This document shows, one piece after another, positions 51,127-53,093 of a DNA stretch of 64,000 bases. Every line of letters begins with the position of its first letter. The first letter of the stretch is position 1. The translations under genes were made by a program, and so were the position numbers. The notes under the pieces are model-generated. The model had not been told where the DNA came from. It did no database searches and worked only from the letters and a program-made list of their open reading frames with translations. The stretch comes from a virus: positions 34,742-98,741 of the IMG/VR virus record IMGVR_UViG_3300032268_001383; one strand, given 5' to 3'.

Positions 51127-51167
51127 AAAAAAATTAGAAAGTATTCTCTTGGAATCCTTTCTAATTT
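51127..51167 (-). terminator. intrinsic terminator after the Ro60/TROVE gene
   Basis: aaattagaaag/ctttctaattt stem plus U-tract on the minus strand. Confidence 0.6.
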
Positions 51168-52611
51168 AAATCTGAATAGAGTTAATCCTATTAAGTAGAG
51201 CCTTTTTATCAGTCTTTAAAAACTTCATCACATCAAATACTTTATCAGAAAATCCAGCCAAACAATAAATTTGGTTTTCCGGAAATTGTAAAGTAGACAT
51301 CCCTGCCAAATCCCAAGAAAAAACATGCGGGTTAACATTGTATTTCTTTTTATAAGCATTGTATTCTTTTGTGGGTGTTGTATACCCAATCCATGATTGG
51401 AAATCAGACAATAGTATTATGTTATCATAAGATTTATTTGCTTTTTCAAAAACAGATTTAACATTAGTGCCACCACCACTAAATCTGAATTTATTTCTTA
51501 GTGAAATAACTGTATCAGATGGGTCATAGTTGATATACTGAGCGTTAGTGGCAAATGTCATTACATCACACTCATTTGCCTTAATCAACATCGCACCGAA
51601 TAAAGAAGCAATTTCAGATGGTGTACCAGACATTGAGCCAGATACATCTATTACAACCAAAGTTTCTCCATCAAGTTTGGGTACATTCATAACTGATATA
51701 TTCAATGCTTCATTGATAGCCTTTAAAACATCTCTTACTTCCTTATTGGAATCAAGTTTGGATATTTCATCGTAAGCCTTAGAGAATCTAAATGGTAGAA
51801 CTTTAGACTTTGCAATCAAGTTTTCATCAACCAACATTTCACAAGCCTTAGTTACACTTTTGGGTGACTGTGTAATAATATTACGAAGATTTCTTAATAA
51901 TCCAAAATAACCAATCCTTCTAGTGCTAAGAAGTTCATCCCAAGCATCAGCTTTTAAATCTTTCAATTCTTCTTCATCATTAGCCTTTTGTCCAGCAGAT
52001 GTAAGCATACTCTCCCAAGTCCCAGTGCTTTTTAAATCGCCGTTTATTAATTGAGATAGAGCCTCGCCATTCTTTTTTGTAGGAGTAGGGTGAACCAAGT
52101 TGACAATATCAACTAGTTTAACATCTTTATTTTCACTACGATACTTTCCGAGCTGGTAAGCATCGAATTTATCAAATGCTTTTGCAAATCCTTTTTTCAA
52201 AGAATTTGGGAATTTTGGACTTTTAATATCAGTTTTATTTTGTAAGTAATATGAAAGGATTTCTGACATATCATCTACACGGCTAACTACTTTTGAGTAG
52301 AAGTTTTTAGACCATTCTTTCCCAGAAATCTCTGAAGCCAATTCACCCGCTAAAGCATGTGTAATACTTCTCATACCGAATTCATCTCTTGCAAAAATAG
52401 CAGACTTTGCCAAAAATTCTTTGTCTTTGATTTTTTTGATATATCCTTTCATATCTGATAGGGATTCATTAGCCTTTCTATAAAACTGGTCTTTAACAAA
52501 TGAAGTCAATAATAATGAAACAAAAGCCATTTCATCTGACTGCTTGTAAGCTTGTCCACCGGCTCTATTTTCTACTTTTTCTACAATTTTTTTTGTATTA
52601 AACTTTGACAT
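51166..52611 (-). CDS. Ro60/Rsr-like TROVE-domain RNA-binding protein with vWA domain
   Basis: NRAGGQAY start, ARDEFGMRS, FDAYQLGKY, LVHP, TWE, LLRNLRN, LPFRF; MIDAS DVSGSM. Confidence 0.92.
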   Translation of the reverse strand: MSKFNTKKIVEKVENRAGGQAYKQSDEMAFVSLLLTSFVKDQFYRKANESLSDMKGYIKKIKDKEFLAKSAIFARDEFGMRSITHALAGELASEISGKEWSKNFYSKVVSRVDDMSEILSYYLQNKTDIKSPKFPNSLKKGFAKAFDKFDAYQLGKYRSENKDVKLVDIVNLVHPTPTKKNGEALSQLINGDLKSTGTWESMLTSAGQKANDEEELKDLKADAWDELLSTRRIGYFGLLRNLRNIITQSPKSVTKACEMLVDENLIAKSKVLPFRFSKAYDEISKLDSNKEVRDVLKAINEALNISVMNVPKLDGETLVVIDVSGSMSGTPSEIASLFGAMLIKANECDVMTFATNAQYINYDPSDTVISLRNKFRFSGGGTNVKSVFEKANKSYDNIILLSDFQSWIGYTTPTKEYNAYKKKYNVNPHVFSWDLAGMSTLQFPENQIYCLAGFSDKVFDVMKFLKTDKKALLNRINSIQI

Positions 52612-52632
52612 ATATTTGATTTTAATTTTGAA

Positions 52633-52672
52633 TAAAAAAGAAACCAGACTTAAAAATTAATTTAAGTCTGGT
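52633..52672 (-). terminator. intrinsic terminator between the ncRNA locus and the TROVE gene
   Basis: 12-bp stem accagacttaaa/tttaagtctggt followed by ttctttttt on the minus strand. Confidence 0.75.
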
Positions 52673-52686
52673 CGAAAGATTTAATT

Positions 52687-53008
52687 TGAAGGCAGGAAAG
52701 TTTAGCGTGAGCTGTCATTTTATAACCCGAAACGTTTTTTTTTCACCAAGTTGAAAATTTCAAGTCAAAACCGATGTATTTTAAAGATACTCATCTTATC
52801 TCAGTTTCATTTTAGTCTTAACTGTTAACTACTACATTTCAATTCCTTAGTTAGAATAGTTGTAAGGTGACTAACCAGTCTTTTTAAACTTCAATGACTT
52901 TGTCGCCAACTTCATCAAAGAACTGTGGGGCTTGACTAGCCTTTCTGTTTTTGTAGTTAATAGAATTATGATTGTGTCGAAGTATCTCATTCTATCACCA
53001 TGCCTTCA
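52687..53008 (-). ncRNA. candidate long Y-like RNA (about 322 nt)
   Basis: Ends pair: UGAAGGCA[U]GG with CCUGCCUUCA; UAG/CUA and UGAG/CUCA helices; UGAGAUACUUCGA motif; several internal hairpins; ORF-free; next to Ro60. Strand inferred from terminator and gene orientation. Confidence 0.6.
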
Positions 53009-53022
53009 CGCATTTATATCGA

Positions 53023-53093
53023 CCAGAGTAAATTACATTTGAGTGTTTGTTGAATTTTCATAATTTCGATGTAACTCAGATGTTGACTACTGG
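53023..53093 (-). ncRNA. candidate short Y-like RNA (71 nt)
   Basis: CCAG[U]AGU with ACUCUGG; ACAU/AUGU and UGAGU/ACUCA helices; UGAGUUACAUCGA motif paralleling the longer RNA. Confidence 0.6.

What the first reader, a model, noticed from the sequence alone, without database searches (positions are those of the whole stretch)
51166..53093. Phage Ro60/TROVE gene with two upstream candidate Y-like RNAs sharing a bulged closing helix
Seen: the ORF-free gap of about 670 nt upstream of the TROVE gene holds two elements with the same architecture but different sequence. Each has a terminal helix with a single bulged U (UGAAGGCA[U]GG/CCUGCCUUCA; CCAG[U]AG/CUCUGG), an asymmetric loop, a short helix, UGAG/CUCA, then the shared motif UGAG-N-UAC-N-UCGA. 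One closes a 71-nt RNA, the other about 322 nt. A strong terminator follows before the protein gene, and a promoter-motif variant (TCAATATATA, 53175-53184) precedes them. Established: Ro60/Rsr binds a bulged helix of Y RNAs encoded beside its gene, and in Deinococcus it tethers PNPase. Inference: a phage-encoded Ro60 RNP with interchangeable RNA adaptors. Caveat: two positions pair better (G-U) on the plus strand, so the strand is not certain.
Basis: partly seen in the sequence, partly recalled or inferred. Interest (0 to 1): 0.82.

Follow-up and report, generated by a model that had tools for sequence, protein, structure and literature searches.

The report
Phage Ro60 gene with two partner RNAs
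A huge freshwater phage encodes a Ro60-type RNA-binding ring protein and, just upstream, two folded RNAs (71 and about 325 bases) that share one conserved docking module; the large, knotted one is unlike any described Ro60 partner (Y RNA).

Summary
The 668-nt ORF-free gap upstream of a TROVE/Ro60 gene (51166-52611, minus strand) holds a 71-nt RNA (53093-53023) and a 322-nt RNA (53008-52687), then a strong terminator.

Both share a handle: a closing helix with a bulged U, a second helix, and the invariant UACUUCG(A).

A covariance model of the handle found about 170 copies in 164 related phage loci, all on the TROVE strand. Pairing was 95% and 15 of 16 pairs showed compensatory changes. Four near-complete 385-483 kb genomes have exactly one match each, beside TROVE.

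Contigs from four lake metatranscriptomes cover only this RNA stretch. One carries a head-to-tail joint placing the long RNA's ends at 53010 and 52682, at the base of its closing helix.

Rfam has no match. The RNAs lack the tRNA-like domain of YrlA.

The nearest precedent is Thermus phage phiLo Ro60 with Yrl1/Yrl2 and their CGAA motif. Phage Ro60 with Y-like RNAs is therefore a known kind. This handle family and the 214-329-nt pseudoknotted cargo are a new variant.

Ro60 binding and function are inferred.

The parts
51166..52611 (-). TROVE/Ro60-like protein gene (481 aa) with a vWA domain and a DVSGSM MIDAS-type motif
   Evidence: Pfam TROVE 3.8e-17, VWA_CoxE and vWA_Ro60. The best solved relative is Thermus phage phiLo Ro60 (9KOP/9L5Y), E 3e-19 over residues 17-475.
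52632..52673 (-). Intrinsic terminator: 13-bp hairpin (52673-52642) followed by a U run, between the long RNA and the TROVE gene
   Evidence: Fold -17.6 kcal/mol, z -7.3. Found by the terminator scan on the minus strand. A hairpin is conserved at the same place in relatives.
52682..53010 (-). Long Ro60-associated RNA. The closing helix spans 53008-52687 (322 nt). The ends implied by an RNA-seq head-to-tail joint are 53010 and 52682 (329 nt).
   Evidence: 44 distinct homologues of 214-320 nt. Metatranscriptome contigs cover 52693-53025 and 52735-53080 at 100% identity, and the joint is 53010|AA|52682.
52998..53008 (-). Long RNA P1, 5' strand UGAAGGCA[U]GG; the bulged U is at 53000
   Evidence: Pairs with 52696-52687. 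In all 44 homologues 9 of 9 positions pair, 7 of 9 positions show compensatory change, and the bulged U is present in 44 of 44.
52687..52696 (-). Long RNA P1, 3' strand CCUGCCUUCA
52977..52994 (-). Long RNA P2 5' strand (UAGAAUGAG, 52994-52986) followed by the invariant motif AUACUUCGA (52985-52977)
   Evidence: P2 pairs with 52711-52703 (CUCACGCUA), 7 of 9 positions in the window.
52703..52711 (-). Long RNA P2, 3' strand
52773..52802 (-). Cargo hairpin P8 (52802-52797 with 52789-52784). Its loop GAUG (52795-52792) can pair with CAUC (52776-52773) to form a pseudoknot.
   Evidence: In the homologous helices of 31 relatives, 3 of 5 (P8) and 4 of 5 (pseudoknot) pairs change on both sides. Window coordinates.
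52717..52771 (-). Cargo helix P9 (GUUUUG 52771-52766 with UAAAAU 52722-52717), enclosing an insertion specific to the window's subtype
   Evidence: The homologous helix 11 in relatives has 4 pairs with double changes. Coordinates; the assignment in the window was made by eye.
53023..53093 (-). Short Ro60-associated RNA (71 nt): P1 CCAG[U]AG/CUCUGG, P2 about 9 bp, motif GAGUUACAUCGA at 53077-53066, A-rich apical loop
   Evidence: Model R1 scores 75.3 bits, E 8e-16. Family covariation. RNA contigs reach 53080 and 53087.
53103..53128 (-). Proximal promoter-like pair AACTTTT (53128-53122) and TAAAAC (53108-53103), 10-35 nt upstream of the short RNA
   Evidence: AAACTTTTT-N(11-17)-ATAAAA recurs at this position in most relatives, judged by eye from the upstream sequences. 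Function not tested.
53175..53218 (-).
   Evidence: It occurs once in the 64-kb window. In relatives it reads AATCCACCTT...AAGGTGGATATATA, with an inverted repeat. RNA contigs do not cover 53094-53170.

Best explanation
The gap encodes two stable non-coding RNAs, transcribed on the TROVE strand as one unit from a promoter just upstream of 53093 and ended by the terminator at 52673-52642. They are then cut into a 71-nt RNA and an RNA of about 325 nt. Each is closed by the same handle: P1 with a bulged U, a 3-nt/6-nt internal loop, P2, and then the invariant single-stranded UACUUCG(A). The phage Ro60-like ring protein encoded immediately downstream most likely binds this handle, with the CGA(A)-containing motif as the main contact, as in other Y RNAs. 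The two RNAs give the same protein two different cargo domains: an A-rich loop in the short RNA, and an 11-helix pseudoknotted domain in the long one. These cargoes are inferred to recruit or sequester host RNA-metabolism factors, such as PNPase, during infection. Shown here: the RNAs are real, structured, conserved, linked to TROVE and present in RNA libraries. Inferred: Ro60 binding, the contact motif, the processing steps and the cargo function.
For: Handle covariation: 90 distinct sequences, 95.3% paired, 15 of 16 pairs with double changes, covariation score 0.70 against 0.18 when shuffled and 0.06-0.13 when slid. All of about 170 model hits lie on the TROVE strand. Four genomes that are 95-98% complete have exactly one hit each, and it is next to TROVE. 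For the long RNA, P1 pairs fully in 44 versions with compensatory changes. Its cargo has 59 pairs, 95.7% paired, with 23 double-change pairs against 9.7 when shuffled. The strand is supported by 82 G-U cells against 19 A-C cells and by the terminator orientation. For expression, contigs from four metatranscriptome runs of four studies end inside 52682-53087, and a joint defines the ends 53010 and 52682. As precedent, phiLo Ro60 binds two upstream RNAs via CGAA, and single-base CGAA mutants bind 3-4 fold worse (PMC12135203). The motif GNCGAAN0-1G of bacterial Y RNAs is described in PMC4201824. The window protein keeps the K139-K140 pair that aligns with phiLo K141/K142.
Against: There is no binding evidence. 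Rfam YrlA gives no hit here even at E up to 10, although it gives weak hits beside TROVE in three other phages. The R1 model does not match phiLo's upstream region. The window's long RNA reads CGAC, not CGAA. Most basic residues mutated in phiLo Ro60 are not conserved in position. Some genomes carry handle RNAs far from TROVE. Logan contigs give neither strand nor level, and the runs were chosen because they hold this stretch. An alternative helix competes with P2 in about half of the long RNAs.
Confidence: 0.75

Rival explanations
1. The two RNAs are real structured phage RNAs that act without Ro60, for example in tRNA or RNA processing or as decoys for a host defence. On this view they sit next to TROVE only because phage RNA genes cluster.
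For: In more distant relatives the TROVE gene and the handle RNAs lie inside tRNA gene arrays. LR745206.1 has three handle RNAs 100-150 kb from its only TROVE gene. In L234 the RNAs are not adjacent to TROVE.
Against: Every genome or contig with the handle that was checked also encodes TROVE. Adjacency on the same strand holds across TROVE proteins down to 41% identity. The invariant motif contains the CGA(A) that other Ro60 proteins use (PMC4201824, PMC12135203).
Confidence: 0.13
2. The elements are a cis-acting leader of the TROVE mRNA, such as an autoregulatory Ro60 binding site or attenuator, and not free-standing RNAs.
For: They lie directly upstream on the same strand, and a terminator between a leader and its gene is the layout of an attenuator.
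Against: RNA contigs stop before the terminator, and a joint gives discrete ends at the base of P1. In L003 an extra ORF separates the RNAs from TROVE. Copies occur downstream of TROVE or far from it. The 13-bp terminator has no obvious competing antiterminator.
Confidence: 0.06
3. The functional transcripts come from the plus strand, antisense to the reading given here.
For: The window's 71-nt element folds better on the plus strand: -22.1 kcal/mol with z -4.2, against -10.7 with z -1.5.
Against: That difference comes from one C-A mismatch. Across 90 sequences, G-U cells outnumber A-C cells 82 to 19, giving 95.3% against 90.7% paired. The U-run terminator is on the minus strand. All copies share the TROVE strand.
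Confidence: 0.03

Closest known systems
Thermus phage phiLo Ro60 with Yrl1 and Yrl2 (Hu et al. 2025, PMC12135203; PDB 9KOP, 9L5Y)
   Same: A phage-encoded Ro60 has two RNAs directly upstream on the same strand. Each RNA has a 5'/3' stem around an internal region carrying CGA(A). The phiLo protein is the best solved relative of the window's protein (E 3e-19). Neither phiLo nor the related huge phages checked here encodes a PNPase (PMC12135203).
   Different: There is no detectable RNA similarity: R1 finds nothing upstream of phiLo Ro60. The handle here is a conserved two-helix module with a bulged U and the invariant UACUUCG. One RNA is about 325 nt with a pseudoknotted multi-helix cargo. The proteins are only about 25% identical.
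Bacterial and phage YrlA/YrlB Y RNAs with Rsr (Chen et al. 2014, PMC4201824; Rfam RF02553)
   Same: The RNAs are encoded beside a Ro60 orthologue, often two per locus and processed from one precursor. They have a terminal stem plus a short CGAA-type motif near the 5' side, and a modular build of a Ro60-binding part plus an effector part.
   Different: YrlA is defined by a tRNA-like domain with T and D arms, which is absent here. The Rfam model gives no hit here, while it gives 28-31 bits beside TROVE in three other phages. Described Y RNAs are 80-130 nt; these are 71 and about 325 nt.
Metazoan Y RNAs with Ro60 (bulged helix containing GGUCCGA; Stein et al. 2005 and Green et al. 1998, as cited in PMC4201824)
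   Same: The closing stem has a single bulged pyrimidine on the 5' strand, and a conserved (U/C)CGA sequence is present.
   Different: In animals the CCGA lies within the bulged helix. Here the bulged helix (P1) and UUCGA are separated by a loop and a 9-bp helix. The sequences are unrelated and the cargo differs.

Membership tests
Y RNA in the broad sense (Ro60-associated non-coding RNA) | Encoded next to, or co-occurring with, a Ro60/TROVE gene in prokaryotes and phages | tested here: met
   Same-strand adjacency across the 164 loci searched. One hit per complete genome, beside TROVE. TROVE is present whenever the handle was found.
Y RNA in the broad sense (Ro60-associated non-coding RNA) | The 5' and 3' ends pair into a stem that carries the Ro60 site | tested here: met
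   P1 and P2 covary. The RNA-seq joint puts the long RNA's ends 2 and 5 nt outside P1.
Y RNA in the broad sense (Ro60-associated non-coding RNA) | Conserved Ro60-contact motif (GGUCCGA, GNCGAAN0-1G or CGAA) | tested here: inconclusive
   UACUUCG is invariant in 89 of 90 sequences, and the following A is conserved in the model consensus. The window's short RNA has CGAA and the long RNA has CGAC. The context differs from the published motifs.
Y RNA in the broad sense (Ro60-associated non-coding RNA) | Physically bound by Ro60 | not testable with these tools
   Needs EMSA or RIP.
Y RNA in the broad sense (Ro60-associated non-coding RNA) | Size 80-130 nt (all characterised Y RNAs, PMC4201824) | tested here: not met
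   Short RNA 71 nt; long RNA 322-329 nt in the window and 214-320 nt in relatives.
YrlA (Rfam RF02553) | tRNA-like domain with conserved T and D stem-loops | tested here: not met
   No YrlA or tRNA hit in the gap at E up to 10 or in 8 relatives at E up to 5. ARAGORN finds no tRNA. The YrlA consensus was seen.
YrlA (Rfam RF02553) | Score at or above the family's gathering cut-off (69 bits) | tested here: not met
   No hit at all here. As a positive control, other phages give 28-31 bits.
Ro60/TROVE protein | TROVE (HEAT-repeat ring) domain followed by a vWA domain with a MIDAS motif | tested here: met
   Pfam TROVE and three vWA models. Full-length alignment to phiLo Ro60, with DVSGSM aligned. 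The fold itself was not modelled.

The most novel reading that the evidence does not exclude
The 214-329-nt pseudoknotted RNA is a new class of Ro60-tethered effector RNA. Its large conserved cargo (11 helices, not tRNA-like, not in Rfam) would recruit or inactivate a host machine other than those known for Y RNAs. It may also switch between two handle conformations (P2 versus the AUAGUU/AACUAU helix), or exist as a circle, as the head-to-tail joint in one metatranscriptome would allow.
Probability: 0.3. Interest if true: 0.8.

Novelty: new variant of a known kind. Interest (0 to 1): 0.62.

Why it matters
Ro60 with Y RNAs is a conserved but poorly understood RNA-surveillance particle. In bacteria, only tRNA-like or short Y RNAs have been described. 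Here a large clade of huge freshwater phages pairs a Ro60-type protein with a sharply defined, strongly covarying docking module, and hangs very different cargoes on it. One cargo is a knotted RNA of about 250 nt that is as conserved as many ribozymes and riboswitches. This gives three things: a clean system for defining what a Ro60 protein recognises, a new large structured RNA whose partner is unknown, and evidence that phages diversify Ro60 adaptors, probably to manipulate host RNA decay or defence.

Tried and rejected
- **Rfam, permissive thresholds.** On the gap and on 8 relatives only chance or terminator hits appeared. Neither RNA is a known family (tmRNA, RNase P, 6S, YrlA, ROOL/GOLLD).
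- **RNase P resemblance.** The block GGUGAAAAAGUCCGG in relatives looks like RNase P CR-I, but no P4 partner is present and the block is not conserved in the window's subtype. I dropped it (by eye).
- **DNA search.** blastn of the gap against 50,697 phage records found no match.
- **RtcB and PNPase.** No RtcB (PF01139) and no RNase PH/PNPase (PF01138) was found in the 98.7-kb source fragment (RtcB only) or in five related 385-635 kb genomes. A phage-encoded ligase or PNPase partner is therefore not supported. The source fragment is only about 18% complete.
- **Loose DNA pattern scan of viral contigs.** Of the 80 loci examined, 77 were chance matches, 2 were known loci and 1 was new (L234).
- **Species-representative genomes.** Only 4 MAG contigs carry the TROVE subfamily (Bacteroidota-type and one 'Cyanobacteriota' bin), and one has the handle. 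This is too little to name a host.
- **AAATCCA...ATATATA as a general phage promoter.** It occurs once in the 64-kb window, so it is locus-specific.
- **Pairing of UACUU with AAGUG in the main-type long RNA.** It never varies, and AAGUG is absent from the window's subtype and from the short RNAs, so it is untestable.
- **Depth comparison of the RNA stretch with its flanks.** I did not use it as a measure of expression, because the runs were picked for holding this stretch.
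Full report
**Observation**

The window has an ORF-free gap of 668 nt (52612-53279). It lies between the C-terminal piece of a ribonucleotide reductase gene and a 481-aa ORF on the minus strand, 51166-52611. 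That ORF is a TROVE/Ro60-type protein. It matches Pfam TROVE at 3.8e-17 and three vWA models. Its best solved relative is the Ro60 of Thermus phage phiLo (9KOP/9L5Y), E 3e-19 over residues 17-475, with the DVSGSM MIDAS-type motif aligned.

- CCAG[U]AG...CUCUGG closes 71 nt (53093-53023).
- UGAAGGCA[U]GG...CCUGCCUUCA closes 322 nt (53008-52687).
- Both carry GAG-N-UAC-N-UCGA.
- A 13-bp hairpin with a U run follows (52673-52642; -17.6 kcal/mol, z -7.3).

**Is it more than chance?**

tblastn found a 68%-identical TROVE gene in a 635-kb uncultured phage (LR745206.1). Scans of IMG/VR and metagenome contigs gave about 160 more loci with 27-79% identical TROVE genes. Many are from lake metagenomes and from contigs of 100-480 kb.

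The first relatives already show both elements with compensatory changes: GAAGGCA[U]GG/CCUGCCUUC becomes GCAAACA[U]AG/CUUGUUUGC, and CCAG/CUGG becomes CAAG/CUUG.

I built a covariance model (R1) from 17 short elements. It found about 170 matches in 164 loci, every one on the TROVE strand. Most lie 300-450 nt upstream of the start codon.

On 90 distinct sequences:
- 95.3% of cells pair.
- 15 of 16 pairs change on both sides.
- The covariation score is 0.70, against 0.18 for shuffles (0 of 500 reach it) and 0.06-0.13 when the partners are slid.

Four related genomes that are 95-98% complete (385-483 kb) have exactly one R1 match each, and it is beside TROVE.

The handle consensus reads as follows:
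- a variable 3-4 bp helix ending in G;
- a bulged U (75 of 90);
- A-U and G-C pairs;
- a 3-nt 5' loop facing a 6-nt 3' loop (AAUUUN);
- a helix of about 9-10 bp ending in GAG/CUC;
- then UACUUCG, invariant in 89 of 90.

**Strand**

The window's short element folds better on the plus strand. This traces to a single C-A mismatch. Across the family there are 82 G-U cells and 19 A-C cells, so pairing is 95.3% on the TROVE strand and 90.7% on the other. The U-run terminator is also on the minus strand.

**The long RNA**

I found 62 loci carrying a long element between the short one and the terminator. They give 44 distinct versions of 214-320 nt.
- Its P1 pairs at 9 of 9 positions in all 44, although I selected for at least 8 of 9.
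- Seven of the nine positions show compensatory change.
- The bulged U is invariant.
- P2 is UAG-NN-UGAG with CUYA-NN-CUA.

So the long RNA has the same handle as the short one.

For 31 'main-type' versions, an RNAalifold structure plus one pseudoknot that I added gives 59 pairs in 11 helices. Pairing is 95.7%, and 23 pairs change on both sides, against 9.7 when shuffled (0 of 500) and 5-14 when slid. The structure was derived from the same alignment, which flatters it.

The pseudoknot joins the loop of hairpin P8 (GAUGG) to CUAUC downstream. It is supported by the variants GAUGG/CUAUC, UAUGG/CUAUA and AAUGG/CCAUU.

The window's copy belongs to a longer subtype, together with L082, L084, L005 and L028. 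It keeps the handle, P8, the pseudoknot and P9, and has extra insertions.

About half of the long RNAs can also form a helix AUAGUU/AACUAU. In the window this is UGAUAGAAU (52997-52989) with AUUCUAUUA (52966-52958). It excludes P2 and also shows compensatory change. I cannot tell which helix forms in the cell.

**Known families**

- Rfam 15 gives nothing for either RNA at E up to 10 in the window, or up to 5 in eight relatives.
- ARAGORN finds no tRNA or tmRNA.
- As a positive control, Rfam YrlA (RF02553) gives 28-31-bit sub-threshold hits immediately upstream of TROVE in a Gordonia phage, a Streptomyces phage and a crAss-like phage. Its consensus shows the T- and D-arm tRNA-like domain. That domain is absent here.
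- R1 does not match those loci or the phiLo locus.

**Literature**

Chen et al. 2014 (PMC4201824) found YrlA-type Y RNAs beside Ro60 in more than 250 bacteria and phages. They describe a 5' motif, GNCGAAN0-1G, which resembles the vertebrate GGUCCGA contacted by Ro60.

Hu et al. 2025 (PMC12135203) showed that phiLo Ro60 binds two RNAs encoded upstream of its gene. Each nucleotide of their CGAA motif contributes 3-4 fold to affinity. The RNP also binds host PNPase and slows it.

The invariant UACUUCGA here contains CGA(A): CGAA in the window's short RNA and CGAC in the long one. The K139-K140 pair of the window protein aligns with phiLo K141/K142, and K142S had one of the two strongest effects in that study. 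The other mutated arginines are not conserved in position. This mapping is my own.

**Expression**

A word index found the stretch in six metatranscriptome runs. I laid four of them, from four studies, on 51000-54200:
- one contig covers 52735-53080 (100% identical);
- one covers 52693-53025 (100% identical);
- one covers 52784-53087 (94% identical, a relative);
- one joins 52827-53010 back to 52682-52718, with two untemplated letters in between.

None of these contigs reaches the terminator, the TROVE gene or anything beyond 53087. Two contigs bridge the 14-nt spacer between the short and long RNAs, which fits a common precursor.

The head-to-tail joint means that molecules begin at 53010 and end at 52682, which is 2 and 5 nt outside P1. 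It could arise from a circular RNA or from template switching by reverse transcriptase, and it gives no strand information.

These are assembled contigs from runs chosen for holding this stretch. They show presence and ends, not level or strand, and DNA carry-over cannot be excluded formally.

**Promoter**

In relatives it reads AATCCACCTT...AAGGTGGATATATA, and it occurs once in the window.

Most relatives, and the window, also have a proximal pair: AAACTTTTT-N(11-17)-ATAAAA in relatives, and AACTTTT (53128-53122) with TAAAAC (53108-53103) in the window. It lies 10-35 nt before the short RNA. RNA contigs do not cover 53094-53170. I therefore favour the proximal pair as the promoter, but neither element is tested.

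**Context**

- The source record is a 98.7-kb fragment, about 18% complete.
- No RtcB was found in the fragment or in five related genomes, and no RNase PH/PNPase in those five genomes. Any PNPase partner would have to be the host's, as for phiLo.
- More distant TROVE clades (41-55% identical) carry 2-4 handle RNAs of 66-152 nt, sometimes downstream of TROVE and often within tRNA arrays.
- LR745206.1 has three further handle RNAs 100-150 kb from its single TROVE gene.
- Contig L234 has two tandem handle RNAs, with TROVE elsewhere on the contig.

**Conclusion**

The RNAs are real, structured, conserved partners of a phage TROVE gene, and they are present in RNA libraries. The most likely mechanism is a Ro60-type RNP in which one protein docks on a common handle and carries alternative cargo RNAs. 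Binding, the contact motif and the function of the cargo are all inferred.

Phage Ro60 with Y-like RNAs is known. This handle family and the large pseudoknotted cargo are not in Rfam or in the papers I could search.

Other notes describe different handle families beside Ro60-like genes. I treated these notes as leads only.

Noticed in passing
window 52682-53010 (metatranscriptome run X17): One RNA-library contig joins 53010 back to 52682 with two untemplated letters, a head-to-tail joint of the long RNA. It could mean a circular RNA, RT template switching between molecules with these ends, or a tandem DNA copy in a strain variant.
   Followed up: partly
window 52958-52997: An alternative helix, UGAUAGAAU/AUUCUAUUA (AUAGUU/AACUAU in relatives), would enclose the invariant motif in a hairpin loop and exclude P2. 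It shows compensatory change in about half of the long RNAs, so it may be a conformational switch.
   Followed up: partly
window 53175-53218 and relatives (e.g. L001 2480-2530): A conserved element AATCCACCTT-N-AAGGTGG (inverted repeat) followed by GATATATA lies upstream of the RNA unit. It occurs once in the 64-kb window and its function is unknown (promoter, operator or protein site).
   Followed up: partly
LR745206.1 342957-343029, 369031-369173, 388893-389001: Three further matches to the handle model (E 8e-9 to 2e-5) lie 100-150 kb from that phage's only TROVE gene. Handle RNAs are therefore not always adjacent to the gene.
   Followed up: no
L234 2003-2195 (minus strand): Two tandem handle RNAs have no TROVE gene within about 2 kb. 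The 56-kb contig encodes a 581-aa TROVE ORF elsewhere.
   Followed up: partly
L044, L065, L068, L081: In TROVE clades 30-51% identical to the window's protein, the gene sits inside long tRNA gene arrays (up to about 17 tRNAs within 5 kb). In L044, L065 and L068 handle RNAs lie among or beside the tRNAs.
   Followed up: no
L164 1011-1190 (crAss-like phage csAssE-Sib): A weak YrlA hit (28.5 bits) lies upstream of its Ro60 gene. GUUACUUCGAAA...AACAC, matching the core of the handle model (E 0.29), overlaps the 5' end of an annotated tRNA-Tyr.
   Followed up: no
L003 2317-2483: A small ORF of about 55 aa is inserted between the RNA terminator and the TROVE gene in one relative.
   Followed up: no
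window 53229-53262: A long perfect hairpin (AAGAACTCATATTAA...TTAATATGAGTTCTT) lies just after the ribonucleotide reductase piece. It is probably that gene's terminator, so the RNA unit is bracketed by terminators on both sides.
   Followed up: no
window 53280-57035: The ribonucleotide reductase large subunit is encoded in pieces (55665-57035 with an intein fragment, and 53280-54026). They are separated by a 535-aa DUF7487/endonuclease-like ORF (54039-55646). Other reports of this scan already cover this.
   Followed up: no
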